DNA from: Patescibacteria group bacterium
GTDB lineage: Bacteria; Patescibacteriota; Minisyncoccia; Phycocordibacterales; UBA918
Direction of reading: 5' to 3'
Assembly (NCBI GenBank): GCA_019752815.1
Contig: JAIELQ010000007.1
Location: forward strand, 115,728 to 179,727
Length of the DNA: 64,000 nt
Below, piece by piece: positions 1 through 31,110 of the stretch (position 1 is its first letter; each line of letters starts with the position of its first letter). The notes under the pieces are model-generated. The model saw nothing but the letters and a program-made list of their open reading frames with translations, had not been told where the DNA came from and made no database searches. Made by a program: the position numbers and the translations under genes.

Positions 1-2224
1 TAATAGTGAGTGGTTTGATGCCGGGTTTGATTATAGACAACGCGTTCGAGTTGTTAACACCGATGCAAGTAGCTATGCTAGTACCGCCGTCAAGTTAACA
101 GTTGCTTACGATAGCAATATGCAATCGGACTTTGACGATTTACGATTTACCGCAGGCGACGGACTCACGACTGTACCATTCTGGATAGAGCGAGTCGTTG
201 CGAGTACCGAAGCTATAGTTTGGGTGCGTATGCCACTCTTGCCGGCAAATGATATCGGAACCGTATTTATGTACTATGGTAGTTCAACGGTAGGTAGTCA
301 GAGTAACGGACCGAGTACGTTTGATGCCTTTGATGATTTCGAGGATAACAACATTACAGAATACAGTGGTGATACTGGACTCTTCCAGACTGATACCGCT
401 CCAGTCTATGGTGGAACGTATGCACTTGAGGCCTTCAACAAGAGTGCTCGAACAACAGATGGTATCTTCCGAACATCTATGACGGTATCACAAGGACAGA
501 TTATTCGATGGATGCAGTATCTTGATACGACGGCCGGTTCAGGGGATGAGGCTTGTACTTTGTTTGGCGTGCAGTCACCAGGAACAAACAATAACAACTA
601 TGCAGTTTGTTTGGAACAGTTTGGTATAGATCGTATTGCAATTTCTCGAAATGTGAGTGATAACGATGTGTCGGGAACGGTGCTGGCCTCGACTACCGCT
701 ACATTTACCACTGGTTGGTATGAAGTCGAGGTTGATTGGCGTACCAATAATTCAATTAATGCCGTTGTCCGGACTGCTGCCGGTGCACTCGTTGCTACCG
801 CTTCAACAACTGATGCTACGTATACCAGTGGCGGTATTGGATTTAGTTTTTGGTTCCAAAATGGTGCTTGGGATAGTTATACAGCCAGACCACGAGCCTT
901 ACGGTCACCAGCAGTATTCTTTGGATCAGAACAAACAGATGGCGGGGCTACCTGGGAACGTGCACAAAACGTTGCTGGTAGTGGAGTGACGGGCGCAAAT
1001 AAACGGTTACGGTTTGCAATTGAAAACTCAGGATTGAATATTACTAATCAGACCTTCCGTCTGGAATATGCTCAAAAAGGAGTTGCTCCAAGTTGTGAAG
1101 CAGTCGGAAATGCTAATTACACGGCAGTTCCAAATCAAGCTTCGTGTGGCAGTTCTCCAGTTTGTATGCAGACATCCTCAAATCTGGTTGATAATGACCC
1201 AACAACAGATTTACTCGCGAGTACTTCCGGTGCTTTTGCGGCAGGTAAAGTTATTGAAAGTCCATCAAATGCAACGGTGTCTTACAACTTGAATCAGAAT
1301 ACATACACTGAACTTGAGTACGTTCTGACACCAACAATTAATGCGACGTCATCATATTGTCTACGGGTAACCAACGGGGGAACACCACTTGATTTCTACA
1401 ACAAAGTGGCTGAAATGAATCTTCAATTTGATCCGGTATTTGGACCAGTGTCTCTAAATGGAGGTAGTCCGATATTGCTTACGCCCGGCACTACCACGAG
1501 AATATTTGCAACGGGGACGGTGACTGATCTTAACGGATATACTGATTTGGTAGCCGGTAGTTCCACAATTTATCGAAGTGGAGTGGGGCCATTATGTTCG
1601 TCTAATACAAATAATTGTTACAAGGGAGAAACTTCAGCCAGTTCGTCGTGTTCATTTGTAAACTGTTCTGGTAATACCTGTACACTTTCATGTACTGCAG
1701 ATATATTCTTCAATGCTGAAGCGACTGACAATGTTCCGTTTACGGGAGAGGAGTGGTTAGCCTATCTTGAGGTTCGCGATGCGGGAGGTGCCTACGATTT
1801 TGAATCAGCGATTGGTGTTGAACTTATCACGTTGCGAGCAGCGGCCGTAAATAATGCTATTAACTATGGTTCACTCTCAGTAGCTGATAATACTGGAACA
1901 TTTAACCCAACTACTACTGTTTCAAACGTTGGTAACGTCAGCTTTAACATTGAATTACTTGGTACTGACTTAACCGATGGTGGCAGTTCACGCATTCCAG
2001 CAGAAGAGCAGCGATTTGCAACCTCTACTTTTAACTACAGTGCTTGTGTGAGTTGTGGAGTGATTTCAAGTACGACACCAGCTCTGCTGGCATTGGGATT
2101 AGCAAAACCAACGGTACCAAATCCACCGGTAACGGCGGCAGTGTACTGGGGAATTGCCGTGCCGGCAGGAGTTAATAGTGCACCACACTCTGGTATCAAC
2201 GTGTTCACACCAGTTTCGCCATAA
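1..2224 (+). CDS. Large secreted surface protein, 5' partial (reading frame is open to position 2). DUF2341-like N-terminus followed by concanavalin/LamG-like and Ig-like regions. Paralogue of 6886..8778.
   Basis: Translation upstream of the listed Met continues in frame to the window edge (..NSEWFDAGFDYRQRVRVVNTDASSYASTAVKLTVAYDSN-MQSDFDDLRFTAGDG..WVRMPLLPANDIGTVFMYYGSS). This matches the DUF2341 signature pattern (W.YR..I.I, D.RF, WVK.P.L, IY.YYGN). The C-terminal ~250 aa align with ORF 6886..8778 (NGGSPI.LT, RSGVG, NNCY, EQRFATS, WGIAVP). Confidence 0.7.
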   Translation, partial: NSEWFDAGFDYRQRVRVVNTDASSYASTAVKLTVAYDSNMQSDFDDLRFTAGDGLTTVPFWIERVVASTEAIVWVRMPLLPANDIGTVFMYYGSSTVGSQSNGPSTFDAFDDFEDNNITEYSGDTGLFQTDTAPVYGGTYALEAFNKSARTTDGIFRTSMTVSQGQIIRWMQYLDTTAGSGDEACTLFGVQSPGTNNNNYAVCLEQFGIDRIAISRNVSDNDVSGTVLASTTATFTTGWYEVEVDWRTNNSINAVVRTAAGALVATASTTDATYTSGGIGFSFWFQNGAWDSYTARPRALRSPAVFFGSEQTDGGATWERAQNVAGSGVTGANKRLRFAIENSGLNITNQTFRLEYAQKGVAPSCEAVGNANYTAVPNQASCGSSPVCMQTSSNLVDNDPTTDLLASTSGAFAAGKVIESPSNATVSYNLNQNTYTELEYVLTPTINATSSYCLRVTNGGTPLDFYNKVAEMNLQFDPVFGPVSLNGGSPILLTPGTTTRIFATGTVTDLNGYTDLVAGSSTIYRSGVGPLCSSNTNNCYKGETSASSSCSFVNCSGNTCTLSCTADIFFNAEATDNVPFTGEEWLAYLEVRDAGGAYDFESAIGVELITLRAAAVNNAINYGSLSVADNTGTFNPTTTVSNVGNVSFNIELLGTDLTDGGSSRIPAEEQRFATSTFNYSACVSCGVISSTTPALLALGLAKPTVPNPPVTAAVYWGIAVPAGVNSAPHSGINVFTPVSP

Positions 2225-15031: not shown

Positions 15032-16174
15032 ATGAGTAGAACGAATACCACGTTCGGACTACTCCAAGCTATTGCAGCGATAGCAGCCTTTGCCATACTT
15101 CTATGGTCAATTGGTTTGCCATCATTCCGTTTTGCGGAAGCTGCAAGTGTCACGTCGCTTAGCGACACCCTCTCAGATTCTGCTCCTGCAGTTGGATCTG
15201 ATCACACTATCAACTTTATTACACCAAGTGGTGTAGCAAACGGTAGTACGATTGTTGTAGATTTTTCTGATGGACCATTTGTGGTTGGTTCAGTTAACTT
15301 CACAGACATTGACGTCTTTGATGACGCCACCAGTCTCGATGTTGCTGCAAACTGCTCTGGTACAGAACAAATCGGTGCGTCCTTTTCTGGGTCAGTCCTC
15401 ACACTTGAATTTTGTTCAGGTGATGGCGGATCACTCCCTACATCAGGCACAACGACAATCTTGATTGGTGAAAATGCTGCTGGAGGAAATGCCCAATTAA
15501 CTAACCCATCAGTTGGATCGTATGAAATCAATCTAACCGTTGGAGCAAGTGATATTGGCTCAACTCGAGTAGCGATTATTGCACCAGTTGTAGTGACGGC
15601 TGCTGTGGATACGAGCTTTACCTTTACGGTAGCGGGTCTTCCAGGCGGTACCGATGTGAACTCGTTGGTAACAACAGGGACATCAACTGCAACTGCAATT
15701 GCATTTGGTGCACTGACAGATGGTAATGCATCTTCTGCTGCTCAACGATTAAGTGTTTCAACAAACGCTAGTTATGGTTTTGCAGTAACTGTGCAGGCAG
15801 ATCAACAACTGACTTCGTCAGCCGGAGCAGATATTGATGGATTTATCGACGGTGCATTTACGAATACTCCGGTATCATGGACATCACCAACACCGATAAT
15901 TTCAGATGAAGATACGTGGGGTCACTGGGGTCTAACCACCAATGATGCAACGTTCGGACTCTCTGACCCGTTTGATGTAGGAGGAGCTGGCAATCGTTTT
16001 GTTTCAGCTTCAACTACACCAGTACAGATATTTCGACATGATGGACCAGCTGACGGTACAACCCAAGATATTGGGCGAGCCGATGTGGGTTATCAAGTAG
16101 AAATCTCAGGTTTGCAGGAAGCAGGAACAGATTACACCGCTACGCTGACATACGTAGCAACTCCAGTATTCTAA
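15032..16174 (+). CDS. Secreted/anchored Thr/Ser/Gly-rich surface protein (candidate abundant cell-surface structural protein)
   Basis: N-terminal hydrophobic segment FGLLQAIAAIAAFAILLWSIGL. Low-complexity beta-rich composition. Preceded by a ~600-bp AT-rich leader and followed by a strong terminator. Confidence 0.55.
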   Translation: MSRTNTTFGLLQAIAAIAAFAILLWSIGLPSFRFAEAASVTSLSDTLSDSAPAVGSDHTINFITPSGVANGSTIVVDFSDGPFVVGSVNFTDIDVFDDATSLDVAANCSGTEQIGASFSGSVLTLEFCSGDGGSLPTSGTTTILIGENAAGGNAQLTNPSVGSYEINLTVGASDIGSTRVAIIAPVVVTAAVDTSFTFTVAGLPGGTDVNSLVTTGTSTATAIAFGALTDGNASSAAQRLSVSTNASYGFAVTVQADQQLTSSAGADIDGFIDGAFTNTPVSWTSPTPIISDEDTWGHWGLTTNDATFGLSDPFDVGGAGNRFVSASTTPVQIFRHDGPADGTTQDIGRADVGYQVEISGLQEAGTDYTATLTYVATPVF

Positions 16175-19076: not shown

Positions 19077-19754
19077 ATGAAAATTAATTTAAACCGCCTG
19101 ACTACCATTCTGATTATCTGTGTGATTGTACTCATTGTCGTATTCCTCACCCTGCACGCTTCTACATCAGGCCAAAACAGTAAAGTAACTGCGACGCTAG
19201 ATGCTGCAATACTTATTCAAAAAGACAATCTGGCAGATCTGGCCGATATTACCCGAGTTAATGGTGCAGATGCCACAACTGACCGTATTATTACCGATTG
19301 TAGTGCTGGTGAACGTGAACGATTTGATACACTGCTTGATAAATTACAAGGAAATATCTCCAAAGATGAATTAAACGAACTCAATACCTTGTTTTATGCC
19401 TGCGGTAGTTTTTTTGCTGATAGAAAAGCGGTGGTGGCTACTAAATTACTGCGTGAGGTTGAGGTGCTTTCCGATTATCTTGATTTACGGAGTATTGTAA
19501 CGAGTAAAAGTTCTGAAGGGTCATCCCAACTAGAGGCATGGAAGAAGCTTGCTGAGTCTGAACTCAAAACCGCGGAATATTTTAAGGAGCTAGTTTTATT
19601 GCAAGGAAAAATCATCGTACTTTTAAGTAGTGGACAAACACCGACCTCGCCTGAGGTGTTGGCAACGCTCAGTCAGGTGAGTACGATACGAGGACAAATG
19701 CTTGTCTTAGGTAATCAAATTGAAGTTCTAAAAACCGAGGCGTTAACACTATGA
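19077..19754 (+). CDS. Membrane-anchored coiled-coil protein of unknown function
   Basis: N-terminal TM LTTILIICVIVLIVVFL; remainder helical. 4-nt start/stop overlap with the next gene (ATGA). Confidence 0.5.
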   Translation: MKINLNRLTTILIICVIVLIVVFLTLHASTSGQNSKVTATLDAAILIQKDNLADLADITRVNGADATTDRIITDCSAGERERFDTLLDKLQGNISKDELNELNTLFYACGSFFADRKAVVATKLLREVEVLSDYLDLRSIVTSKSSEGSSQLEAWKKLAESELKTAEYFKELVLLQGKIIVLLSSGQTPTSPEVLATLSQVSTIRGQMLVLGNQIEVLKTEALTL

Positions 19755-20509
19755 AATTCTTACGGAGAGCTTTACAAAAAGTATTTCCAACCTTGGGATT
19801 AAAAAACTCTCCGACGGTTCGCTACGCGTTCTCTTTTTTGTTTGTATTTGCAGCTGTTGCCTCTATTGCAGCCGTTTCAGGGACAAAAGGTTCCTATGTG
19901 AAGGTGGTACCAAGCGCTAACATGGTTGAGGTGAACACACAGTTCAATTTGGAAGTGTACGTATTTGCTGATGCGCCAATTAATGCGGTTGATCTCAGTG
20001 TATTGTATCCAGAAGCTCAGGTAGAAGTGCTCGGTATTGATAAAGGAGAGTCGGTAATCACACTTTGGACAGAAGAACCTCATGTGAAAGACGGTGCCGT
20101 GGTTTTGCGTGGTGGGACATACAAACGAGGTTTTGTTGGTGAGCATAAAATAGCTACCATTAACCTTAAAGCCAAAACAGCCGGTAGTGCTCAGTTTCTG
20201 GCAGGAACAGTCATGTTGCTTGCAGGTGATGGTAAGGGAACAAGTATCAAGGCCGATACTACCCGAGCGAAAATCGTCACTACTGTGTACCCCGCAGGTC
20301 AAAAACCAACCGGTCCTATGACACTTGAAGGGGAAGTGAGCTTCCTCGTAGTTACAGATATTGATGGCGATGGTTCAGTGACACTGACTGATATCAGCTC
20401 ATTTATGGCAAATTGGACCTCAAAGGAGCGACAATTTGATTTTAACAATGATGGACAGATGACGTTTCGGGATTTTTCTATAATTTTGTTTGATTATTTT
20501 TCAAAGTAA
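19751..20509 (+). CDS. Protein with an N-terminal cohesin-like domain and a C-terminal dockerin-like double repeat
   Basis: Cohesin-like: YVKVVPSANMVEVNTQFNLEVYVFADAPINAVDLSVLYPEAQVEVLGI..LRGGTY. Dockerin-like: DIDGDGSVTLTDISSFMANW ... DFNNDGQMTFRDFSIILFDYF (Ca-binding positions 1,3,5,9,12 = D,D,D,T,D and D,N,D,T,D). Confidence 0.6.
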   Translation: MKFLRRALQKVFPTLGLKNSPTVRYAFSFLFVFAAVASIAAVSGTKGSYVKVVPSANMVEVNTQFNLEVYVFADAPINAVDLSVLYPEAQVEVLGIDKGESVITLWTEEPHVKDGAVVLRGGTYKRGFVGEHKIATINLKAKTAGSAQFLAGTVMLLAGDGKGTSIKADTTRAKIVTTVYPAGQKPTGPMTLEGEVSFLVVTDIDGDGSVTLTDISSFMANWTSKERQFDFNNDGQMTFRDFSIILFDYFSK

Positions 20510-20602
20510 GTCGGAATGGTGATGAGATTTATGTTGATAAAAAAGCGTTTTAGTTGCGTGATACCTGATATTATGTACTAGATGGGAAATTTATAACGGA
20601 CC

Positions 20603-22273
20603 GTGAATCCGTTATATAAACAATTGGCTGAAAAGAAAGTGAACAAGGCCAACCATAATCAAAAGAATATTCGACCACGTCAGGTAATCCTCTACCGTAA
20701 CGTGTTTTATTCCCGTGTATCTTCTGCGGTGGTTTTGTTGTTGTGTCTATCTTTCCTCTTACAACCAATCGAACGCGTATTTGCCTCCGAAACTACTCCT
20801 ATTGATTCAGAAACGAGCGCTACTATCAATTTGGCAGTTGATGCTGGTTTGTCTGATTCAACACCTGAAGCACCAACTGAAGCTTCCGAAACGACATCAA
20901 CTGATGTTGTGTCTTCAGATGCTCCTGAAACTAATGTAGCTAATGCGGACGATGGTTCTTCTAACACTGTAACTGAAGATGTTAGTGAAGTCAGTGATCA
21001 GCTGGTTGGTGAGACTGATGTTGCCGACGGTGCTGATTCAAAAGATACTAGTGAAAGTAGTAACGATGAATCAAGTACCACGACAGTCTTTACTGACGAA
21101 GAAATTCAAGACCTTATTAATCCTGAAGATGAACTTCCTCCTGCCGAATTAGAAGTAGGTACCACGACTGCGACTAGTACTGAAATTCCAGTGGCGGTGA
21201 CAACTGTACACAGTGATGCGGTGATGCAATTTAATCGTAATGATTGTGTAACGGTTGAGGACGGCTCATTCTATTGTCAGAGTAAAAAAGAAGAAGCAGA
21301 ACAGGGAACCGACGGCATGTATGCGTTGCAAGATAAAGATGGTGATCTTGAAATATTTTTACAAAAAAATGGTGAGTTGGCTCAGCTGACATTTAATACC
21401 GTTGATGATGCTGCGCCAGTATTTGACACTAAATCAAATACTATTGTTTGGCATCGGTTGGTGGATGAGCGCTACCAAATCATTTCCTATGATTTAGAGA
21501 GTGAACGCGAAGTGCAGCTAACTGCTGATAACGTAAACAATATGGAACCGAGCCGTTCAGGTAATTTTACAGTTTGGCAACGATGGAACGACACTAACTG
21601 GGATATTGTATTGTACGATGGTACTGAAACAAAATTCCTGACTGATAGCCTCCAGCACGACATTGCTCCGAATGTAAAAGGTGATTTAGTGATGTGGAAT
21701 CGTTTGGCGTCAGATAACACGCAGACAATTGAATTATTTGATATTGTGACGGGTGAATTTACCACGATTACCGATGAAGAGGGTGGAGCGTTGTCCAATC
21801 CTCGTATGGTATTAGTTTACGAAACGGAATTTGCTAATGGGGACGTGGTAACTAAAGGTTACAATGTTGAAACCGGAGAAGTGACGCCACTCGCAAATGA
21901 TCCGGCTGAATTACCAGAAGAATTACCTGAACCAGATGCTACCGGTGAAACAAGAGCGCTCGTGCAGCCAAAGAATCCAACCAAAGAAGACGCAGAGATA
22001 AGCGAAGATGTTTTTCCCGGTATCGATAGTGACCCAAACCTTTCTGGAACTTCAACTGCATCCTCTACCTACTCACCACAGTCAGGTGATTTGCATATTG
22101 CATCTTCCAGTTCGTACATTGCCGGCAGTACACCAAATACGGGAACAAATACCGAAACAATCGCTGATATGACGCTCGATCTCACGCCTCCGGTTTTGCT
22201 GCCAGCTGATATTCCTCAGGATCTGGTGGTGCCACCGTTTGTGCCCGACGTTTCAATAGAAACTAGCGAGTAG
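20603..22273 (+). CDS. Highly acidic Ser/Thr/Asp/Glu-rich membrane-anchored protein
   Basis: TM AVVLLLCLSFLL near the N-terminus. Long D/E/S/T low-complexity N-terminal third. Beta-propeller-like W-containing repeats in the middle (WHRLVDERYQI, WQRWNDTNWDI, MWNRLASDNTQTI). Confidence 0.5.
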   Translation: MNPLYKQLAEKKVNKANHNQKNIRPRQVILYRNVFYSRVSSAVVLLLCLSFLLQPIERVFASETTPIDSETSATINLAVDAGLSDSTPEAPTEASETTSTDVVSSDAPETNVANADDGSSNTVTEDVSEVSDQLVGETDVADGADSKDTSESSNDESSTTTVFTDEEIQDLINPEDELPPAELEVGTTTATSTEIPVAVTTVHSDAVMQFNRNDCVTVEDGSFYCQSKKEEAEQGTDGMYALQDKDGDLEIFLQKNGELAQLTFNTVDDAAPVFDTKSNTIVWHRLVDERYQIISYDLESEREVQLTADNVNNMEPSRSGNFTVWQRWNDTNWDIVLYDGTETKFLTDSLQHDIAPNVKGDLVMWNRLASDNTQTIELFDIVTGEFTTITDEEGGALSNPRMVLVYETEFANGDVVTKGYNVETGEVTPLANDPAELPEELPEPDATGETRALVQPKNPTKEDAEISEDVFPGIDSDPNLSGTSTASSTYSPQSGDLHIASSSSYIAGSTPNTGTNTETIADMTLDLTPPVLLPADIPQDLVVPPFVPDVSIETSE

Positions 22274-22341
22274 TGTGGTGTAATACCGGCTCTCTACAGG
22301 TAGTAGTTTGTAGGGTACGCAAAGCATGAGAAAATAAACCC

Positions 22342-25300
22342 ATGGGGAGGTATCCTTCGTTTTTTAATTGTGTACGTACGCATAAATGCGTGAGCGCTTT
22401 TCTGCTTCTTTTGACTATCGGTGCGCAATTTACGTTTCTGGAATTCTTATTGCCCAGAATTGCTCAAGCTGCGGTTGTTACTATCGATGCAACGGTCAGT
22501 CTCACGGCCACGGAACATCTCTTTGCTGGATCACAAACTGTATTTACGACAGATCAAATTGGCTATAAATTCTATGTTGATTCATCAGGTGTTTGTGCGT
22601 ATAGCAAAACCACTGATGGTGGTAATTCCTGGGGAGGGGCAGTCACAGTAGATAGTAAAACAGATTGTACGAGTATTGCAGTTTGGTACGATCGCTGGAC
22701 TCCTGGCGATGCCGGTAATAATATTCATATTTCAACCATGAACGTCGCTAATGCGACTGATGTGATTTGGTACAATCGTCTCGATACTAGTTCAGATACT
22801 CTTTTGTCAGGTACAACTCCTATTAATACCGTCAGTAATTCTGCACAGGTACCTACCTATGTTGCTGGTACTAATGAACAAACTATTAGTAAAAGCACTA
22901 CCGGTGTTCTGTACATCGCAGCTTCAGATGCCTCGGATTCATTTGTTATCCAATGTAGTACAGGCTGTAACACTACAACCAATTGGACCCAAGCCGGTAC
23001 AAACTTTATGGATTTGGACAACGACTGGAACCTCCTGATGCCAATCCTCGGCGGTAACATGTTGCTTATTAACCGGGATATTTCAGCAGACGATATCCGA
23101 ACTCGAGTTTGGAACGGCAGTACTTGGTCCGGCAGTTGGACTGCGGTTGATTCAGCAGCAGTGGAGGGGGCAACCTATGATATTGCAATGGCTGCTACCC
23201 AAGACCATTCCTCGGGCGATATTTATCTTGCCTACGCAGCTGATAACGATAGTTATACTGTCCTTGACCATGATGTACGGACTGCCAAATACGTCAGCGG
23301 CTCTTGGACTTCTACAGCTAATATTTTTACAAATTCTACACGTGGTTTAACTGGTATTGCAATTTCGCTTGATACCAACCTGGGAGTAATTTATGTCGCG
23401 TATGGATTACGTACTACGCCCGCAACGGCCACTACAGGTAACATTTACTATTCAACGTCAACGAGTGCCATGTCATCATGGAGTGCAGAACAAGGACCGG
23501 TGAATACCACACCTGGAGATCTCTATGGTATTGATATGAATATCATGAGTGACGAGCGAATTTATGCGACGTGGCAAGACCCAGCACCGGATGATATTTT
23601 TGGTGAGACAATAGCAAACATTGCGCCAGTAACAAAAGTATCTACGCTAGGAACTCCGGCCACGAGTGTGTCGGCGAGCACTAGTAATTTCTATACTGGT
23701 GGAGCATTTTTAATCAAAGAAAGCCAGGTCAGTCGTAATGTCACCGACATTACTATTTCTGAAAATGGAACAGTTGACGGGAGTGGTGCTATTAAAAATA
23801 TAAAACTATTTTATGATTTGGATACCAGTGCGCCCTATGATTGTGTGAGTGAAACATACTCTGGCCTGGAAACACAATTTGGTAGTACCGATGTAAATGG
23901 TTTTACTGGAGCAGATGGTGTGTCATCCTTTAATGGTTTAGTTAATATCACTCCCACTCAGGCGATGTGCGTCTATACAGTAGTTGATGTGCTTGATGCT
24001 GCACTCAGTGCTTCCACGTTACGGGTATTTATTGACAATCCAGGTTCTGATGTGTTGGTTTCGGGTGGCGGGTTAGTTACACCAGACACCCCAGTTGCAT
24101 TTGTTTCTGGCACCACAATTAACAACGATACACTTACGCAAACGCATTATCACTGGCGAAATGATAACGGAAATGAAACCGCTGCAACGTCTGCTACCGG
24201 CGGAATTGCTGATACGCCAATTCCCGCGCTGCTTCAAAACACTCCGCGGCGACTTCGTGTACAAGTTTCAAACGAAGGTTCGCTCGCCAGTCCCGCTACC
24301 CAATTTCGGTTAGAGTATGCCGAAGCTGCGCCAACTTGTGCTGCGGCGAGCGGGTGGACTGATGTGAATGCCACCAATGATGCCTGGAATATGTTTGACT
24401 CCACCTTTGTACCTAATGGTTCAAATACCACTGATATTTCAGTAGCGAGCGGGGGGATGGTAAATGAAAATACTACTTTCCTTACCCCCAATGGTGGTCA
24501 ACTTGATACTACTTCACAAACAGGCCCATTAACCTTAACTGCTACAAATTTCGTTGAGTTAGAATATTCGATTGTGGCCTCTAGTAGTGCTCCACAGGGT
24601 ACAACCTATTGTTTTAGAGTTACCAGTGCGGGGACAGTATTACCAGTCTACAGTGTCTACCCACAGGTAACAGTATCAGCAGATGTTTCGGTAAGTGCTA
24701 TTGGCACCCAGGCATCATCGGCCATTATTCCAACTACAAATTTTCAAGTTGGCGGTACGTTTGTGTTTACTGAAAATGTTAGCTCTCGTAATCTCACCAG
24801 TATAACAATTACTGAAACGGGTTCAGTTAATGGTGCGACCAGCTTGGATAATATTCGTTTACGGTATGATCTCGATACTACAGCTCCGTACAACTGTGCT
24901 AGTGAATCATATGCGGGAACAGAGACACAGTTCGGCGCAACTGACACCGATGGCTTTTCGGGTCCTAACGGCAGCTCCACTTTTACTGGCTCTGTGTCAC
25001 TTACCACCACTCAGGCGGTATGTATGTATACAGTTTTTGACATTACCAGTGCCGCCAATAATGGGGAAGATATTCAAATAGAAATTGCTAATGGCGGGAA
25101 TGATGTTGTTGTTTCTGCTGGAGCGGTTGGTCCAACTACACCGGTGTTGCTTGCTGGCACTACTACCTTGTCAGGAGCAATTTTAGCGCAAACAGGGTAC
25201 CACTGGCGTACTGATTCTGGCAGTGAAACTACCGCACCCTCAGCAACAGCAGGAAATCAGAATACCCAACTCATTGAACATGCAGCCAGTAGTTCGATAC

Positions 25301-28300
25301 GTCTTCGTTTAGGGGTAAGTAACGAAGGAGCAGCAACCTCAACGGGCGCTCAGTACCAGCTAGAGTATGGTCCAAAAATTACCACCTGTAGTGCAGTGAG
25401 TGTGTGGACGAGTGTTGATGCTGCTAATGATGACTGGAATATGTTCAATTCAGTCAATATTACTGATGGTGCAAACACCACAAACATCGCTACGAGTACC
25501 GGTGGAGTAAGTGATGGTAATACTACGTTTGTTACTCCTAATGGTGGAGTGAAGGATACAAGTGCGGTGACGGGAGGAATAACACTCACCTCAACGCAGT
25601 TTACCGAGCTCGAATTCAGTATTACTTCAACCGGGATTACGGGCAGTGACGTCGTGTACTGTTTTCGAGTGACTAATCTCGGGACTGAACTTAATCAGTA
25701 TGATAATTATGCTGAAGTTAGAACAGCCCCAAAACGTGATTTTAAAGTGCAGCGTGGAGTGACTAACGTCACAGGTACCGGAGTAACGCTCACTGCTGGT
25801 GTGAACTATACAGCACCGCAAGCGTCATCAAGCGCGTTTGTACGAATCACTAATACCCAGATGACTGGTGCAGGACGCAATGCTGGCGGTGCTGCTCAGA
25901 ACGCAGATGACGTTACTGCGTACATTAGTAATCCTGGTAACATCATGACGAGTTTTACAATCAGTCGACCACCAGCTGCCATCGGCAATACCCAAGTATA
26001 TTGGGAAATTATCGAATTTATTGGTGCCACTAGTACCGATAACGAAATGAAGGTTCTCAGTGCAGCCACAGTGGGGATGGTCAGCGCATCAACAAGTGCG
26101 ACCGGTACGGTTGTAACCGGCGTGACTGATGACACAGATATAGTTGTGTATATTACCGGAATTGAAAATCGCGATATAGGACGAAACTTCTATTATGCGG
26201 GGGCAGTCACTGCCGAGTGGGATGCAGCTCTTAATCGACCAGTATTTAGACGAGGTGCGGGCGGAGCTATTATCAACGTTAGTTATGCGGTAGTGGAATA
26301 TACTGGTATTAACTGGAATATCCAACGTGTTGAACACACTTATGCATCGAGTACCATAATTGAAACGGAAACAATTACACCCGTTAATAGTTTAGCGCGA
26401 ACGTTTATTCATGCTCAAAAAAGAATTAATGGATTAGGAAATGTTAATAATTATGGTCACGAAGTCTGGCTCTCGAGTATCGGGGCGGTGTCATTTAAAT
26501 TAGAGGATGCAGCAACGACACCTGCTTCGCATACTTCAGTGGTGTGGGTTATTGAAAATCAACAAACGAGTGCCGGTGCCATGAGAGTGCAACGAAGTAA
26601 CGGTAACACTACCGACGGAACCGAACCAGTAGCTCTTTCGATTCCAATTTTTACCCCACTGAATACAATTACCAATGCATCCATTTTTGGTACTTCTCGG
26701 GCAGTGGGGGCAAACTCAAACTTTCCAATCCCTATGGCAGGCTTGAGTATTACTTCCACTTCGTCCTACCTACTGTGGCGCAGTGAAGCCACCGCTGCAC
26801 TTCTTACGTACCGAACCGAAATTGTTGAGTGGCCAATAAATGGGTTGGCAGTTCGACAAAATTACTATCGTATATACGCAGATAACAACTCGTTACTGCC
26901 GACAGATCCGTGGCCGCCCGGACCAAGTGACCTTGGTGAAAATACGCCACTCTCTATTGCCGATCAACCACTGGGTGAAGCCGATCGGGTACGACTACGT
27001 ATGTCATTGCGTGTAACTAATGCAAACTTGCCGGTGGGACTCTACGATTTTAAATTACAGTACGGACTACGGTTAACTTCTTGTTCGGCTGTAGCTGGGT
27101 GGACTGATGTAGGGGCTGCCAGCAGTTCAGCTATTTGGCGTGGGTATAATGCGACTGGTACAACCAATGGAGCAGATCTGTCGGTAAATCCGCCAATATT
27201 CGGTGATTTAGTGCTGTCTGTTTCAGATATTGCTGGTAGCTATGTTGAGGAAAATCCAGCACCAGCAAATCCGTTTGGTGCTGACCCAAACCGTGATATC
27301 GAGTATGATTTTCAACTTTCTCATAACGGTGCCATGGAGCGCAGTGTGTACTGTTTCCGAATGGTGCGGGGTGACGGTACGACACTTGATGGATACTTAA
27401 ATTACCCGCAAATCCGGACAGCTGGTTTTACACCACAAACACAGAACTGGCGTTGGTACGATGATGCTACTAATGAGACTCCGACTACACCGTTGTCTGC
27501 CGAAACAGTAGCTCCGATTGAAATTCAAAACGATAATACACTCGCGCTTCGGGTTACTGTCGGTGAAGCCAAAAACGTGCGTGGTCAAAATGTAAAGTTT
27601 AAAGTGCAGTATGATGAAAACCCTAATTTTACAAATCCGCGTGATGTCACGGCTACTTCTACGTGTACCGCTACTTCTACCTGGTGCTATGCGGTAGGTG
27701 GTGGCGCTGATAACGCTACGATTACTACCAAAGTCCTAACCGATGCCGACAGCTGTACTAGTAGTGTCGGGGAAGGTTGTGGTACACACAACAGTTCTGG
27801 TGTGTTTGTGCTCGGTGATACACACGAACCCGGTGCTAACCGTGAGTATGCGTTTTACCTCAGGCAAGTTTTGGCGCGTACTGGTGTGGTGTACTACTTT
27901 AGATTGTATGACACTTTGAATGAAGTTCCTGTCGTTCTTAAGTCCGGTAGTGTGTATCCCAGTACGGTAGCAGAGACTGCGAAACTTTCGCTTACTATTT
28001 CTGGTCTGCCTTCAGGCACTACTACTGCTGGCGTTGTTACTACTGCCACTTCGACACCATCTACCATCAATTTTGGTACTATTCCAATTAATACACCCTG
28101 GTATTCAGCCCATAGAATTTCTGTAACTACCAATGCTATTGATGGGTATCGAGTTTTGAGTTACGCCCGGCAACAGCTCTTGAATAGTTATGGTACAGCT
28201 ATTAATTCCGTCACGGGCACCAATGCTGCCCCAACTAGTTGGGCAGTGGGTTGCCAGATTTCTGCTCCGGGGTGTATAGGCTACCACACGAGCGATGCTA

Positions 28301-28497
28301 CATTGGCAGGCGGCTCAACCCGATTTTCACCATTAGATAGCTATGCGGGACTACAAACCACGCCACAAGAAGTGATGTATAGCTCTCTTCCCGCCGATGA
28401 TGTACATGATATTCTATACAGAGTAAGTGTCACTAACAGTCAACCGGCCGGCACCTACGAAACGGAAATTGTCTATTTGGCAGTGCCGACGTACTAA
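22342..28497 (+). CDS. Giant (2051 aa) membrane-anchored surface protein: BNR/Asp-box beta-propeller region followed by four ~160-aa repeats
   Basis: N-terminal TM. BNR motif YSKTTDGGNSWGG. Four internal repeats each contain [H/N]W[R]..D......[QK][FY][RQK][LV][EQ]Y......C.A...W[T]..[DG] and end [EY][LDA][EF][FY].......[Y]CFR[VM][TV]..G..L..Y.(N)YP. Confidence 0.7.
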   Translation: MGRYPSFFNCVRTHKCVSAFLLLLTIGAQFTFLEFLLPRIAQAAVVTIDATVSLTATEHLFAGSQTVFTTDQIGYKFYVDSSGVCAYSKTTDGGNSWGGAVTVDSKTDCTSIAVWYDRWTPGDAGNNIHISTMNVANATDVIWYNRLDTSSDTLLSGTTPINTVSNSAQVPTYVAGTNEQTISKSTTGVLYIAASDASDSFVIQCSTGCNTTTNWTQAGTNFMDLDNDWNLLMPILGGNMLLINRDISADDIRTRVWNGSTWSGSWTAVDSAAVEGATYDIAMAATQDHSSGDIYLAYAADNDSYTVLDHDVRTAKYVSGSWTSTANIFTNSTRGLTGIAISLDTNLGVIYVAYGLRTTPATATTGNIYYSTSTSAMSSWSAEQGPVNTTPGDLYGIDMNIMSDERIYATWQDPAPDDIFGETIANIAPVTKVSTLGTPATSVSASTSNFYTGGAFLIKESQVSRNVTDITISENGTVDGSGAIKNIKLFYDLDTSAPYDCVSETYSGLETQFGSTDVNGFTGADGVSSFNGLVNITPTQAMCVYTVVDVLDAALSASTLRVFIDNPGSDVLVSGGGLVTPDTPVAFVSGTTINNDTLTQTHYHWRNDNGNETAATSATGGIADTPIPALLQNTPRRLRVQVSNEGSLASPATQFRLEYAEAAPTCAAASGWTDVNATNDAWNMFDSTFVPNGSNTTDISVASGGMVNENTTFLTPNGGQLDTTSQTGPLTLTATNFVELEYSIVASSSAPQGTTYCFRVTSAGTVLPVYSVYPQVTVSADVSVSAIGTQASSAIIPTTNFQVGGTFVFTENVSSRNLTSITITETGSVNGATSLDNIRLRYDLDTTAPYNCASESYAGTETQFGATDTDGFSGPNGSSTFTGSVSLTTTQAVCMYTVFDITSAANNGEDIQIEIANGGNDVVVSAGAVGPTTPVLLAGTTTLSGAILAQTGYHWRTDSGSETTAPSATAGNQNTQLIEHAASSSIRLRLGVSNEGAATSTGAQYQLEYGPKITTCSAVSVWTSVDAANDDWNMFNSVNITDGANTTNIATSTGGVSDGNTTFVTPNGGVKDTSAVTGGITLTSTQFTELEFSITSTGITGSDVVYCFRVTNLGTELNQYDNYAEVRTAPKRDFKVQRGVTNVTGTGVTLTAGVNYTAPQASSSAFVRITNTQMTGAGRNAGGAAQNADDVTAYISNPGNIMTSFTISRPPAAIGNTQVYWEIIEFIGATSTDNEMKVLSAATVGMVSASTSATGTVVTGVTDDTDIVVYITGIENRDIGRNFYYAGAVTAEWDAALNRPVFRRGAGGAIINVSYAVVEYTGINWNIQRVEHTYASSTIIETETITPVNSLARTFIHAQKRINGLGNVNNYGHEVWLSSIGAVSFKLEDAATTPASHTSVVWVIENQQTSAGAMRVQRSNGNTTDGTEPVALSIPIFTPLNTITNASIFGTSRAVGANSNFPIPMAGLSITSTSSYLLWRSEATAALLTYRTEIVEWPINGLAVRQNYYRIYADNNSLLPTDPWPPGPSDLGENTPLSIADQPLGEADRVRLRMSLRVTNANLPVGLYDFKLQYGLRLTSCSAVAGWTDVGAASSSAIWRGYNATGTTNGADLSVNPPIFGDLVLSVSDIAGSYVEENPAPANPFGADPNRDIEYDFQLSHNGAMERSVYCFRMVRGDGTTLDGYLNYPQIRTAGFTPQTQNWRWYDDATNETPTTPLSAETVAPIEIQNDNTLALRVTVGEAKNVRGQNVKFKVQYDENPNFTNPRDVTATSTCTATSTWCYAVGGGADNATITTKVLTDADSCTSSVGEGCGTHNSSGVFVLGDTHEPGANREYAFYLRQVLARTGVVYYFRLYDTLNEVPVVLKSGSVYPSTVAETAKLSLTISGLPSGTTTAGVVTTATSTPSTINFGTIPINTPWYSAHRISVTTNAIDGYRVLSYARQQLLNSYGTAINSVTGTNAAPTSWAVGCQISAPGCIGYHTSDATLAGGSTRFSPLDSYAGLQTTPQEVMYSSLPADDVHDILYRVSVTNSQPAGTYETEIVYLAVPTY

Positions 28498-28502
28498 CTC
28501 CT

Positions 28503-29480
28503 ATGAAATACTTATTCCTTATTTGTCTTTTCTTTGCTTCAGTTCAGCCTATCTTGGCTGCTAATTATGCGGTTTCGCCGCTTTTGATTGAAAATACTAT
28601 CGAGCCGCGTGACATGTTTGAAGAGACTGTTAAAATAACCAATACCACTGATCGTAAGGTGCGGATTTTTCCAACAGTAAACGAAATTACTATTGGTGAA
28701 GGAGGTGAGGTAAAATCATTTGTTCCGGCGTCAATGAGTGACAATACAACTAGTATTACGAGCTGGATTGCGGTCACTCGTGGTCGAGTAGAAATTAATC
28801 CTGGTGAGACGATAAAAATTCCTATATCGTTTACTATCAATCCCAATGCAGTAGCAGGCGAGTACCATGCATTTATTGGTTTTGCTGAAGGTTCAAAACG
28901 TGATGAAGCCGAAGCGCTTGTGACCTCGGGTCGAGCACCGGGAGTGGTGGTGCGATTGTCACTTGTTGAAAAACGCACTGAATACCTGAGGCTGAACCGA
29001 TTTACCGTTGATCGATTTGTTACCGAATCAAATGATGCTGTTGTGAGTTATGAATTAGAAAATGTTGGCGGTCTACCAATAACACCAAATGGCGAAATCA
29101 TTTTCTATAACAATCGCGGGGTGGAAATAAATGCATTGCCTGTTAATCCAGAAGAAAGATCCATTAACCCACAAAGTAAAGTAACGTTTGAGCAAACTAT
29201 TCCAGAGCTCGGTGTGATTGGTCGCCACAAAGCTCTCTTAAATGTTGAGTATGGTACCGCAATGCGAGCTAACTTATACGATACAACCTATTTTAATGTG
29301 GTACCGGTACTGTATTTGGCACTTATCTTTGGTTTTCTATTACTCACATCATTACTACTTGCTTTATGGTATCATCGGTCGAAAACACGAATTAACGATC
29401 TTGATGAAGAGGTGTCGGTGTATGTTCGTAGTGGAATTGTTGGGGCAGAAAAAGACCATGATATCAATCTTAAAAAATAG
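28503..29480 (+). CDS. Secreted two-domain beta-sandwich protein with C-terminal TM anchor (paralogue of 9080 and 29458)
   Basis: Signal peptide MKYLFLICLFFASVQPILA. Motifs W.AV..G...I.PGET..IP.S.T, ENVGGLPI, C-terminal TM LALIFGFLLLTSLLLALWY. Confidence 0.55.
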   Translation: MKYLFLICLFFASVQPILAANYAVSPLLIENTIEPRDMFEETVKITNTTDRKVRIFPTVNEITIGEGGEVKSFVPASMSDNTTSITSWIAVTRGRVEINPGETIKIPISFTINPNAVAGEYHAFIGFAEGSKRDEAEALVTSGRAPGVVVRLSLVEKRTEYLRLNRFTVDRFVTESNDAVVSYELENVGGLPITPNGEIIFYNNRGVEINALPVNPEERSINPQSKVTFEQTIPELGVIGRHKALLNVEYGTAMRANLYDTTYFNVVPVLYLALIFGFLLLTSLLLALWYHRSKTRINDLDEEVSVYVRSGIVGAEKDHDINLKK

Positions 29481-31110
29481 CGCACTACTGATTTTTATAC
29501 TTGTAGGAGTATTTACAGTACCCCTAGTAACGTTAGCGCAGTCTGATCGTACTCAAACACTCAGTGTCTCACCAACTCTGTTTCAAATGTCGGCTAACCC
29601 AAGCCAGTCTTGGACCAGTGAAATTAGAGTAGTTAACGTCAATGATTACCCGATTACCGTATATCCGCAAGTGGTGAACTTCGCCCCATCGGGTGAGACC
29701 GGGACTGGTTCACTCATCCCAATCTTTGCAGAAGAAACCCAAGGAAAGACATTGGCAGAATGGGTAACTCTATCCCAGAGTGAAGTACTTATCCTTCCAC
29801 AACAAACTGTAACTATTCCATTTTCAGTAACAGTTGTTGATGACGCAGCTCCCGGTGGACACTACGCCGCTATCTTGGTAGGTACAAAACCACCGGCACG
29901 TACTAATGAAGCTGCTCAAGTGCAGACAGCACAATTTGTTACAGCGCTCATTTTTGTGCGCGTCTCAGGTGATGTTCTTGAAGCAGGAAATATTCGTGAA
30001 TTTACTACTGCAAAAACTATTAACTCAGAGCCGAACATACAGTTTGATGTTCGCTTTGAAAATACAGGCAATGTTCATTTGCAACCACAAGGAGATATTA
30101 CCATTACAAATATGTGGGGGAGTCAGCGTGGGGTTATTCCAATTAATTACCAAACACACTTTGGTAATGTACTCCCTAACAGTATACGAAAATTTAGTTT
30201 TACGTGGACAGGTGAACAGTCGTCGTATGATATTGGTCGTTTTAAAGCAATTGCTACATTGGGGTATGGGGAAGATACCAAAAATTTCGCCACCAGTACG
30301 ACCTATTTCTGGGTAATTCCTCTAAAACAAATTGCCTTTGTTCTAGGAGGGCTGCTTCTATTGTTTTGGTTCTTGAGTTTTGCAATTAAAATGTATATCA
30401 AACGCATGTTGACGTTGGCTGGACTTGATCCAGTCGCTCGACAGGCTACTTCAAGTCAAAAATATAGTGCCTACAGCACACACGCTGCTGTGCCAGCCAA
30501 GACAGTCATAATTCGTCGGTATCAAACCGTTACCGGACCAGTGAGGCATAGTATGTTTGAGTTAGTGCAAAATTTAAAATCCGCCAAAGCTATTAGTGAA
30601 GTAATTAAAATTATCATTACGTTTTTAATACGAAATAAAATCTTTATTTTGTTTATGGTTGTAATTGGAGGTTTATGCATGGTAACGTTTTGGTTTTTTG
30701 GTGATATGAATACAAAATCTCGTCCATATGATGTGAGTATTGTTAATCCAGATGCTACCGTAGTGATTTCGTCTGATGAAATACTTTATCGATCATTACC
30801 CGAATACGAGTTACCTGCTGGGGAGATGCAGATTGAAAAACCTTCATTTAAGGTCGAGCTTATAAATGCCAGTGGTGAGCCCGGTTTGGCTGCCAAAGCA
30901 AAACGAAAACTTGAGGCGTATGGGTATGATGTCACGACGATATCTAATGAACTAGGACGATCGGATACAAAATCAGTAATTATTTTTAATCAAGCCAATC
31001 AAGCAGCTGCACTAGAATTGAGTAAAAAACTTAATGGTGCGCTACTGTCGGTTGATGCGGGCATTTCTCCTGACCTTATTCGTGTCTATATCGGTACGGA
31101 CAATCGCTAA
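29458..31110 (+). CDS. Secreted two-domain beta-sandwich protein with TM anchor and additional C-terminal domain (paralogue of 9080 and 28503)
   Basis: Start moved to the internal Met (MISILKNSALLIFILVGVFTVPLVTLAQSD). The listed 29242 start would overlap the preceding gene by 239 nt. Motifs W..L.....L.P..T..IPFS.T, ENTGNVHL. TM FVLGGLLLLFWFLSF, then a second TM and a ~150-aa C-terminal domain. Confidence 0.55.
   Translation: MISILKNSALLIFILVGVFTVPLVTLAQSDRTQTLSVSPTLFQMSANPSQSWTSEIRVVNVNDYPITVYPQVVNFAPSGETGTGSLIPIFAEETQGKTLAEWVTLSQSEVLILPQQTVTIPFSVTVVDDAAPGGHYAAILVGTKPPARTNEAAQVQTAQFVTALIFVRVSGDVLEAGNIREFTTAKTINSEPNIQFDVRFENTGNVHLQPQGDITITNMWGSQRGVIPINYQTHFGNVLPNSIRKFSFTWTGEQSSYDIGRFKAIATLGYGEDTKNFATSTTYFWVIPLKQIAFVLGGLLLLFWFLSFAIKMYIKRMLTLAGLDPVARQATSSQKYSAYSTHAAVPAKTVIIRRYQTVTGPVRHSMFELVQNLKSAKAISEVIKIIITFLIRNKIFILFMVVIGGLCMVTFWFFGDMNTKSRPYDVSIVNPDATVVISSDEILYRSLPEYELPAGEMQIEKPSFKVELINASGEPGLAAKAKRKLEAYGYDVTTISNELGRSDTKSVIIFNQANQAAALELSKKLNGALLSVDAGISPDLIRVYIGTDNR

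What the first reader, a model, noticed from the sequence alone, without database searches (positions are those of the whole stretch)
22342..28497. 2051-aa BNR-propeller protein with four copies of a ~160-aa module that also occurs in the DUF2341 protein
After an N-terminal TM anchor and an Asp-box/BNR region (TTDGGNSWGG), the protein contains four repeats. Each repeat is framed by an opening HWR/NWRW..D..ET motif, a [QK][FY][RQK]LEY......C.A..GWTDV core, and a closing ELE[YF]....(7-10)..YCFRVT..G..L..Y..YP motif. The repeats lie at roughly aa 590-770, 965-1125, 1495-1690 and 1695-1885. The same module occurs once in ORF 1..2224 (RLRFAIENSGLNITNQTFRLEYAQ..SCEAVG...TELEYVLTPTINATSSYCLRVTNGGTPLDFYNKV). 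The paired Cys residues and the aromatic-rich ends look like a lectin-like jelly-roll domain. I cannot name the family from memory. It may be an unclassified carbohydrate- or host-binding domain specific to this lineage.
Basis: seen in the sequence. Interest (0 to 1): 0.5.

Follow-up and report, generated by a model that had tools for sequence, protein, structure and literature searches.

The report
Unclassified Ig-like repeat in giant surface protein
The repeated ~180-residue module is real and matches no curated protein family, but it is a common immunoglobulin-like building block of giant cell-surface proteins in ultrasmall (Patescibacteria) and some other bacteria, not a lineage-specific lectin.

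Summary
Observation confirmed. ORF 22342..28497 encodes a 2051-aa secreted or anchored protein. It has four copies of a ~180-aa module (aa 597-779, 947-1129, 1505-1694, 1697-1878), and a fifth copy lies in the DUF2341 protein at the left edge of the window. Leave-one-out profiles recover every copy (E 3e-29 to 8e-5).

The head is a BNR_2-type propeller by family-level evidence.

The more interesting result lies outside the original finding. The gene belongs to an operon conserved across Paceibacteria: cohesin/dockerin-like protein, TolB-like propeller, giant protein, then two DUF916-like membrane proteins (downstream pair present in 66 of 67 loci). A small paralogue shares the giant's C-terminal domain. 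This layout parallels Firmicute WxL/WxLIP cell-surface clusters, but the defining WxL motifs are absent.

Best reading: the module is a stalk domain of a fibrillar-adhesin-like surface complex.

The parts
22342..28497 (+). Giant surface-protein gene, 2051 aa. Domain order: anchor - H (propeller) - A - B - A - B - M - B - B - C.
   Evidence: ORF. Domain order. Homologues P0023, P0025 and P0038 share the same architecture.
22384..22455 (+). N-terminal hydrophobic segment (aa 15-38), followed by AQA/A. It is a signal peptide or membrane anchor.
   Evidence: Kyte-Doolittle scan; sequence. Cleavage is inferred, not tested.
22468..23637 (+). Head (aa 43-432): BNR_2/Asp-box beta-propeller-like domain. 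One canonical Asp-box (aa 90-97), no FRIP motif.
   Evidence: Homologues carry PF13088/PF02012. 30 of 39 family members hit BNR_2. The profile hits solved sialidases, E down to 6e-7. Motif scan. There is no direct Pfam hit on this sequence.
23638..24120 (+). Domain A, copy 1 (aa 433-593). Unclassified; always followed by a B module.
   Evidence: Self-BLAST; jackhmmer; no Pfam hit at E<=10; architectures.
24130..24678 (+). Module B, copy R1 (aa 597-779).
24691..25173 (+). Domain A, copy 2 (aa 784-944).
25180..25728 (+). Module B, copy R2 (aa 947-1129).
   Evidence: Leave-one-out E 2.6e-29.
25732..26856 (+). Middle region M (aa 1131-1505). Conserved and unclassified; in some homologues it also serves as the N-terminal head.
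   Evidence: jackhmmer found it in 29 proteins. Architectures such as M-A-B-A-B-M-B-B-C. No significant Pfam hit.
26854..27423 (+). Module B, copy R3 (aa 1505-1694), 'R3-type'.
   Evidence: Leave-one-out E 1.6e-19.
27430..27975 (+). Module B, copy R4 (aa 1697-1878), 'R4-type'. It lacks the Cys pair and has four other invariant Cys.
27985..28494 (+). C-terminal domain C (aa 1882-2051). A beta-sandwich that ends ...AGTYETEIVYLAVPTY. It closes the conserved B-B-C unit.
   Evidence: Alignment A6. B-B-C in 53 of 149 module proteins. No Pfam or PDB sequence hit. AF2 model.
899..1426 (+). Fifth copy of module B, inside the DUF2341 protein.
   Evidence: Leave-one-out E 1e-11.
2..2224 (+). DUF2341-containing surface protein. 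Its N-terminus is cut off by the window edge.
   Evidence: DUF2341 E 2.7e-19. The frame is open from base 2.
15032..16174 (+). S1: small (380 aa) anchored protein whose C-terminal half (aa 189-380) is a paralogue of the giant's domain C.
   Evidence: hmmsearch E 1.6e-24 over the whole profile. BLASTP 33% identity, E 2e-12. 100% identical to NCBI 'hypothetical protein K2P47_03120 [Patescibacteria group bacterium]'.
19751..20509 (+). U2: anchored protein with a C-terminal dockerin-like/EF-hand module. Conserved upstream of U1 where the flank reaches.
   Evidence: Dockerin_1 E 8.6e-5. Synteny in 3 loci.
20603..22273 (+). U1: anchored protein with TolB-like beta-propeller repeats, immediately upstream of the giant gene.
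   Evidence: NCBIfam repeat hits, sub-threshold. U1 relatives were found in 48 related loci; in all 30 best hits inspected the gene ends just upstream of the giant ORF.
28503..29480 (+). D1: signal peptide, two Ig-like domains (first is DUF916/WxLIP_PGBD-like), C-terminal TM helix.
   Evidence: PF06030 E 0.015 on this sequence. 20 of 38 D1/D2 orthologues hit PF06030 at E<=0.01. TM helix at aa 261-292. Present downstream in 66 of 67 loci.
29458..31110 (+). D2: paralogue of D1 with two TM helices and a C-terminal LytR_C domain. The likely start is at 29458, not 29242.
   Evidence: PF06030 E 6.8e-4 and LytR_C E 3.4e-13. Start position and TM helices. Present downstream in 66 of 67 loci.

Best explanation
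The ~180-residue module is an uncurated family of Ig/Fn3-like beta-sandwich domains. In one subtype it is stabilised by a disulfide. It carries a variable ~50-residue insertion between the fourth core strand and the 'TE-x-E-Y' strand. It most likely works as a stalk or spacer domain of fibrillar-adhesin-like giant surface proteins.

In this protein, the modules, together with A and M domains, string a sialidase-like BNR propeller head away from the cell. The conserved C-terminal unit B(R3-type)-B(R4-type)-C is probably the proximal end. It would hold the protein at the envelope through the two co-transcribed DUF916-like membrane proteins D1 and D2. A small paralogue, S1, carries the same C domain.

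Shown: the repeats, their fold class, the absence of a curated family, their wide distribution, the modular architecture, the conserved operon and the shared C domain.

Inferred: the stalk role, the orientation of the protein (C-terminus proximal), and binding of domain C to D1/D2 or to the cell wall.
For: Repeats and significance.

Stalk-like usage: 1-21 tandem copies per protein. The 10-13-copy proteins have prepilin-type N-termini. Conserved positions are core-strand residues, while the insertion is variable and modelled with low confidence.

Modularity: the cargo varies (H, M, A-B units), but B-B-C is invariant at the C-terminus in 53 proteins.

Operon: D1 and D2 lie downstream in 66 of 67 loci. 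U1 relatives occur in 48 loci and lie directly upstream of the giant ORF in the hits inspected. D1/D2 hit DUF916 recurrently and have TM helices. S1 shares domain C.

Published WxL clusters have the same logic of a small protein, a large protein and a DUF916 membrane protein. In those clusters the large protein is a linear string of domains anchored by its C-terminal domain (PMC9772566, PMC10599100). Giant Patescibacteria proteins are generally presumed to be adhesins (PMC11809585).
Against: There is no direct evidence of function. An Ig-like sandwich can also bind ligands, and the insertion loop could be a binding site. The giant protein also has an N-terminal hydrophobic segment that could be the real anchor, which would make the C-terminus distal. 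Domain C has no WxL motifs and no WxL Pfam hit. D1/D2 match DUF916 only weakly: the two window proteins score below Pfam's gathering cut-off, and DUF3324 is not detected. The fold assignment rests on predicted models with a low-confidence central region. AFDB could not be searched.
Confidence: 0.55

Rival explanations
1. The module is a carbohydrate- or host-binding (lectin/CBM-like) domain. Multiple copies would give avidity for a glycan on the host cell surface, working together with the sialidase-like head.
Against: No member matches any CBM or lectin Pfam family consistently. The fold hits are generic and are not jelly-roll lectins. Arrays of up to 21 copies, and a fixed position next to the C-terminal domain, are more typical of stalk domains. 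The conserved residues map to core strands, not loops.
Confidence: 0.25
2. The module is only a very divergent member of an already named Ig-like family or clan (Fn3, CARDB, PKD, MG domain) that HMMER cannot see. Profile-profile methods would file it there, so it would not be a new domain.
Confidence: 0.3
3. The repeats are a compositional artefact: Thr/Ser/Ala/Gly-rich low-complexity sequence producing spurious self-similarity.
For: The protein is rich in T, S, A, G and N.
Against: Leave-one-out E-values reach 3e-29. Motifs and a co-varying Cys pair are conserved in register. There are thousands of homologues with full-length matches, median 178 aa. The fold is predicted confidently. No other window ORF scores above noise.
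Confidence: 0.01

Closest known systems
Ig-like/Fn3-like stalk domains of fibrillar adhesins and pilins (for example CARDB, alpha-2-macroglobulin MG domains, the CLIPPER domain 9ifr, Gram-positive pilin domains)
   Different: No sequence-level membership in any named family. The domain is almost twice as long, because of a ~50-residue insertion. It has its own N-terminal 'Y-[RH]-W-[RY]-x-D-D-G-x-E' strand motif, and a Cys pair in one subtype.
WxL / WxLIP (DUF916-DUF3324) cell-surface gene clusters of Firmicutes (Csc clusters; PMC9772566, PMC10599100)
   Same: The operon encodes a small and a large secreted protein sharing a ~170-190-aa domain at the extreme C-terminus. The large one is a linear string of domains. 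Next to it lie membrane proteins built as signal peptide + two Ig-like domains + TM helix, and their first domain recurrently hits DUF916/WxLIP_PGBD. The spacing between the two conserved aromatic positions is longer in the small protein, as described for small versus large WxL (PMC9772566).
   Different: Neither Trp-x-Leu motif is present: the conserved positions read W-x-[VTS] and Y-x-A-x-P. There is no PF13731 hit. DUF3324 is not detected and the PGBD motif NQIDKxxxYFDLK is absent. There are two DUF916-like genes, one fused to LytR_C. S1 lies five genes upstream rather than within four. The phylum is Patescibacteria, not Firmicutes.
BNR/Asp-box sialidase-like beta-propellers (Pfam BNR_2 PF13088, BNR PF02012)
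   Same: A canonical Asp-box. Family members hit BNR_2 and BNR. The profile hits solved sialidases.
   Different: The window protein itself is below detection in Pfam. It has no FRIP motif. The PDB hits are mostly short Asp-box stretches. The family has its own invariant 'W-Y-D-R-W-T-P-G-D' motif. Catalytic competence is unknown.
Giant DUF2341/FhaB-containing proteins of Patescibacteria (PMC11809585)
   Same: Very large, presumably adhesive surface proteins of ultrasmall bacteria. The module also occurs in a DUF2341 protein in this window.
   Different: That paper found no full-length homologues for its proteins and describes neither this module nor this operon. Here, the R4 + C-terminal end of the family was found in at least 151 species-representative genomes, and the downstream synteny was checked in 67 of the 78 loci kept.

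Membership tests
Named Pfam/NCBIfam Ig-like or lectin domains (Fn3, PKD, CARDB, LamG, CBMs) | Significant match to the family's profile HMM | tested here: not met
   No hits on the whole protein, on isolated domains at E<=10, or on a 13-copy homologue. Among 36 diverse members at E<=1, at most 2 hit any single family.
Named Pfam/NCBIfam Ig-like or lectin domains (Fn3, PKD, CARDB, LamG, CBMs) | Profile-profile (HHpred-type) assignment to a family or clan | not testable with these tools
   No Pfam or PDB70 profile library is available for hhalign. Only HMM-versus-sequence searches could be run: PDB sequences, best E 0.06 to titin Fn3.
Ig/Fn3-like beta-sandwich fold class | Two-sheet sandwich superimposable on known Ig-like domains | tested here: met
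Lectin-like jelly-roll (ConA/LamG-type) | Jelly-roll topology; structural neighbours are lectins or glucanases | tested here: not met
BNR/Asp-box propeller (head domain) | Asp-box motif S/T-x-D-x-G-x-x-W | tested here: met
   TTDGGNSW at aa 90-97. A second box is degenerate in this protein, although it is conserved in the family consensus.
BNR/Asp-box propeller (head domain) | Match to PF13088/PF02012 | tested here: inconclusive
   The window sequence gives no hit. 30 of 39 aligned family members hit BNR_2 and 12 hit BNR. Homologues at 40-65% identity carry PF13088.
BNR/Asp-box propeller (head domain) | Six-bladed propeller fold | not tested
Catalytic sialidase (GH33) | FRIP motif / arginine triad | tested here: not met
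   There is no RIP tripeptide in aa 1-440. The other catalytic residues were not mapped.
WxL cell-surface cluster | WxL domain: two Trp-x-Leu motifs, PF13731 | tested here: not met
   No PF13731 hit in 40 giant-type and 10 S1-type proteins at E<=1-10. The conserved aromatic positions read W-x-[VTS] and Y-x-A.
WxL cell-surface cluster | Small and large proteins sharing a 160-190-aa domain at the extreme C-terminus | tested here: met
   S1 (380 aa) and the giant protein share domain C: E 1.6e-24 and 33% identity. Proteins of about 390 aa carrying domain C lie downstream of the operon in five other loci (L058 with two, L071, L075, L076; a cut one in L057).
WxL cell-surface cluster | WxLIP partner: DUF916 (PGBD) + DUF3324 (HBD) + C-terminal TM helix | tested here: inconclusive
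   DUF916: 20 of 38 orthologues at E<=0.01, best 1.1e-6. The window's D2 scores 6.8e-4 and D1 0.015, both below the gathering cut-off. DUF3324 is not detected. The TM helix is present. The conserved PGBD motif NQIDKxxxYFDLK is absent (sequence).
WxL cell-surface cluster | Physical interaction of the C-terminal domain with the DUF916 protein and with peptidoglycan | not testable with these tools
   No multimer prediction or experiment is available.
Type IV pilin-like giant proteins | N-terminal prepilin motif G/[FMV]-T-L-[IL]-E followed by a hydrophobic helix | tested here: not met
   Read by eye from the translation (the regex scan covered only the database homologues), the window protein's first 60 residues lack the motif. 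It is present in the 10-13-copy relatives P0013-P0015.
TasA-like donor-strand fibre subunits (considered for domain C) | TasA/camelysin-like jelly-roll fold; sequence family match | tested here: inconclusive

The most novel reading that the evidence does not exclude
The conserved Paceibacteria operon (U2-U1-giant-D1-D2, plus the small paralogue S1) may be a previously undescribed, distant counterpart of the Firmicute WxL/WxLIP cell-surface complex.

In this reading, a new ~170-aa C-terminal domain that lacks the WxL motifs docks small and giant proteins onto DUF916-like membrane proteins and the cell wall. It would give ultrasmall episymbiotic bacteria a modular platform on which variable 'cargo' heads are displayed on stalks built from the new B module. 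Such heads include the sialidase-like propeller and M domains.

If true, it would link a well-known but mechanistically unclear Gram-positive adhesion system to Patescibacteria. It would also name three uncurated domain families (B, A, C).
Probability: 0.3. Interest if true: 0.6.

Novelty: new member of a known kind. Interest (0 to 1): 0.4.

Why it matters
Patescibacteria depend on attachment to host cells, and their giant surface proteins are almost entirely unannotated. Here, essentially all 2051 residues are invisible to Pfam and NCBIfam.

Defining the B module would make thousands of giant proteins interpretable. It has at least 5,143 cluster representatives. The same applies to the A and C domains and to the invariant B-B-C terminus.

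The conserved operon gives a concrete, testable hypothesis for how these proteins are held on the cell. Its parallel to WxL/WxLIP clusters also suggests which part is the exchangeable host-recognition end.

For the original question of whether this is a new lectin domain specific to this lineage, the answer is more modest. It is an uncurated but common Ig-like repeat.

Tried and rejected
Tool calls that gave nothing:
- Foldseek against AFDB50 was not available. The module could therefore not be compared with annotated AlphaFold models.
- The search for related loci with the diverse module alignment A3 failed because no stretch was conserved enough. I used the tighter R4 + C alignment A4 instead.
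- Exact look-ups of the giant protein and of S1 in the assembly index found nothing. The sample of origin is therefore unknown, beyond the NCBI name 'Patescibacteria group bacterium', locus-tag prefix K2P47.
- Literature searches for Patescibacteria with giant/BNR/surface-protein terms and with WxL returned nothing relevant.

Hypotheses rejected or left open:
- Domain C is a WxL domain: rejected, with no Pfam hit and no WxL motifs.
- The giant protein is a type IV pilin: rejected. The 'AQFTFLEF' stretch follows, rather than precedes, the hydrophobic segment and does not fit the prepilin pattern (read from the translation).
- The head is a catalytic sialidase: no FRIP motif, but the question is left open.
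- Foldseek against PDB on the two-domain model gave only generic tandem-Ig matches with TM-scores of 0.31 or below.


Full report
**1. Observation**

The window contains the ORF 22342..28497 (+), 2051 aa, exactly as reported. A hydropathy scan finds a single N-terminal hydrophobic segment, aa 15-38.

Residues 433-776 and 784-1126 form a ~345-aa tandem duplication at 48-49% identity. The second half of each unit also matches aa ~1539-1691 and, more weakly, aa ~1700-1840.

An HMM places the copies as follows:
- aa 597-779
- aa 947-1129
- aa 1505-1694
- aa 1697-1878
- aa 261-436 of ORF 119..2224

A six-frame scan of all 406 window ORFs finds no further copy.

Because that HMM was trained on the copies themselves, I repeated the test leaving each copy out. 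For R1 and R2 I left both out. The copies are still recovered at E = 2.4e-27, 2.6e-29, 1.6e-19, 7.6e-5 (R4) and 1e-11. The repeats are therefore real.

The 'paired Cys' holds for R1-R3 and the ORF1 copy. R4 lacks both Cys and has four other invariant Cys. Over 504 instances from 172 proteins the two Cys co-occur: 249 have both, 230 neither and 25 one. This is what a disulfide in one subtype would give, although the instances are not phylogenetically independent.

'ORF 1..2224' is truncated by the window edge.

**2. Is the module a known domain?**

- Pfam-A and NCBIfam find nothing in the giant protein at E<0.1.
- They find nothing significant in any of its domains taken singly at E<=10.
- They find nothing covering the module in homologues with up to 13 copies.
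- Scanning 36 mutually diverse members one by one at E<=1 gives no recurrent family. The most is 2 of 36, for PKD_5, GEVED and Imm17.
- Profiles of the module find no significant PDB sequence. The best is titin Fn3 at E 0.06, through the shared 'Y-x-F-R-V' strand.

An AlphaFold2 model of R1 built on a 14-sequence alignment has pLDDT 77.8 and pTM 0.79. Its strand core is confident and a central region (about residues 95-135) is poorly defined.

A second, independent model of R4 plus the C-terminal domain (pLDDT 80.1) gives the same list. Foldseek on that model gives only tandem-Ig matches.

The module is therefore an Ig/Fn3-like sandwith with a large insertion, and no lectin jelly-roll appears among its structural neighbours. 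It belongs to no curated sequence family that I could test. HHpred-type profile-profile comparison and the AlphaFold database were not available.

**3. Distribution**

A word-indexed search found only 12 short metagenomic hits. An exhaustive HMMER search of 1.84 billion cluster representatives gave a very different result:
- 5,143 proteins at E<=1e-3
- 2,946 at E<=1e-10
- 733 at E<=1e-30
- 1-21 copies per protein, in proteins up to 7,591 aa

A scan of species-representative genomes with the R4 + C region found 151 relatives. Of these, 78 loci were kept. Their record titles are almost all Kaiserbacteria, Paceibacteria, Nomurabacteria, Parcubacteria and other Patescibacteria.

The protein with 13 copies, P0013, is recorded as Chloroflexota. 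It sits among biosynthetic genes and next to a pilin-like gene. It and the 10-12-copy proteins have prepilin-type N-termini.

The module is therefore neither rare nor specific to one lineage.

**4. The rest of the protein**

Head (aa 43-432). It has one canonical Asp-box. Its homologues, named Yanofskybacteria, Pacebacteria, Kaiserbacteria and so on by NCBI, carry precomputed PF13088/PF02012. Of 39 aligned family members, 30 hit BNR_2 and 12 hit BNR. The family profile hits solved sialidases down to E 6e-7, mostly over Asp-box stretches. There is no FRIP motif. The 'BNR propeller' label is therefore supported at family level, but catalytic activity is not.

Domain A (two copies), region M and the C-terminal domain C are all conserved in homologues. 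None has a Pfam match.

Across the 149 best module proteins the architecture is modular. The N-terminal cargo varies (H, M, A-B units). All 53 proteins that carry domain C end in B-B-C, with an R3-type module followed by an R4-type module.

**5. Genomic context**

Downstream of the giant gene lie D1 (28503..29480) and D2 (likely 29458..31110). Each has a signal peptide, two Ig-like domains and TM helices. D2 has in addition a LytR_C domain.

In related genomes D1- and D2-like genes follow the giant gene in 66 of 67 loci with enough flank. Relatives of the TolB-like propeller gene U1 occur in 48 loci and end just upstream of the giant ORF in the best hits inspected. U2 precedes U1 where the flank reaches.

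The weak WxLIP_PGBD (DUF916) hit of D1 and D2 recurs in 20 of 38 orthologues.

A profile of domain C finds a second carrier in the window: the 380-aa protein S1 (15032..16174). The match has E 1.6e-24 and 33% identity. Similar ~390-aa proteins lie near the operon in several other genomes.

S1 is identical to NCBI 'hypothetical protein K2P47_03120 [Patescibacteria group bacterium]'. The domain-C family has at least 951 members, and none of the 120 best hits listed carries a Pfam annotation.

**6. Comparison with WxL clusters**

Published WxL clusters always contain three components (PMC9772566, PMC10599100):
- a small WxL protein;
- a large WxL protein, built as a linear string of domains with the 160-190-aa WxL domain at the extreme C-terminus;
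- a DUF916-DUF3324-TM protein, which AlphaFold predicts to insert a hairpin into WxL.

The operon here has the same logic. However, the defining features fail:
- there is no PF13731 hit and no Trp-x-Leu motif;
- DUF3324 is not detected, and the PGBD signature motif is absent.

I therefore do not file the operon as a WxL cluster. I regard the resemblance as a mechanistic lead with probability about 0.3.

No paper in the library links Patescibacteria with WxL. Giant DUF2341/FhaB proteins of Patescibacteria have been noted as presumed adhesins (PMC11809585).

**7. Verdict**

The most likely role is a stalk domain in a fibrillar-adhesin-like surface protein whose conserved B-B-C end docks to a DUF916-like membrane platform. 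The stalk role, the orientation and the docking are inferences.

Novelty is modest for the module, which is a new family of a familiar kind. It is somewhat greater for the conserved operon.

Noticed in passing
window 15032-16174: S1, a 380-aa anchored protein, carries the same C-terminal domain as the giant protein (E 1.6e-24, 33% identity). It gives a small/large pair like that of WxL clusters. It is 100% identical to NCBI K2P47_03120 (Patescibacteria group bacterium).
   Followed up: yes
window 19751-31110; loci L001-L078: The gene order U2 (dockerin-like) - U1 (TolB-like propeller) - giant - D1 - D2 (DUF916-like membrane proteins) is conserved across Paceibacteria genomes. D1 and D2 are present in 66 of 67 loci, and U1 relatives occur in 48 loci, directly upstream of the giant ORF in the hits inspected.
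   Followed up: yes
window 23638-24120 and 24691-25173: A second unclassified ~160-aa domain ('A') precedes R1 and R2. It has no Pfam hit at E<=10. In every homologue architecture listed it is followed by a B module. Its fold was not predicted.
   Followed up: partly
window 25732-26856: The ~375-aa middle region M is conserved and unclassified. By eye it looks like two similar beta-rich halves. In some homologues (P0022, P0024) a copy of M replaces the propeller as the N-terminal head.
   Followed up: partly
P0013 / locus L079 4001-11611: A Chloroflexota protein has 13 copies of the module and a prepilin-type N-terminus, and the next gene has a weak N_methyl hit. The module therefore also builds giant pilin-like proteins outside Patescibacteria.
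   Followed up: partly
P0285 (495 aa, Candidatus Pacebacteria): This homologue of domain C is fused to an N-terminal Peptidase_S24-like (signal-peptidase-type) domain (E 6.5e-17). This recalls the dedicated signal peptidases of TasA-type fibre systems.
   Followed up: no
window 29242-31110: The mechanically listed 622-aa ORF overlaps D1 by 239 nt. The start consistent with a signal peptide is the ATG at 29458 (MISILKNSALL...), which overlaps D1 by 23 nt.
   Followed up: partly
window 16275-17312, 17317-19068, 19751-20509, 10047-11162: Several further anchored surface proteins lie in the neighbourhood. By eye, three share an N-terminal cohesin-like beta domain (not tested). Two have Dockerin_1 hits (19751-20509, E 8.6e-5; 10047-11162, E 7.1e-6). 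Others have Big_13 or Big_6 domains. This suggests a cohesin-dockerin-type surface assembly in this organism.
   Followed up: no
P0035 (2469 aa), between its first and second A-B units: By eye, this homologue has a DUF2341-like plus LamG-like insertion (YRIPLTIDSAEV...FPVYVDLS...). It is the same pairing of DUF2341 with the B module that occurs in the window's first ORF. It was not scanned.
   Followed up: no
window 27430-28494 (alignment A4): R4-type modules have four invariant Cys (C-x6-C and C-x7-C spacing). Domain C has two invariant Cys (G-C...G-C-[FV]-G-Y-H) that the S1-type copy lacks. These are probably extra disulfides.
   Followed up: no
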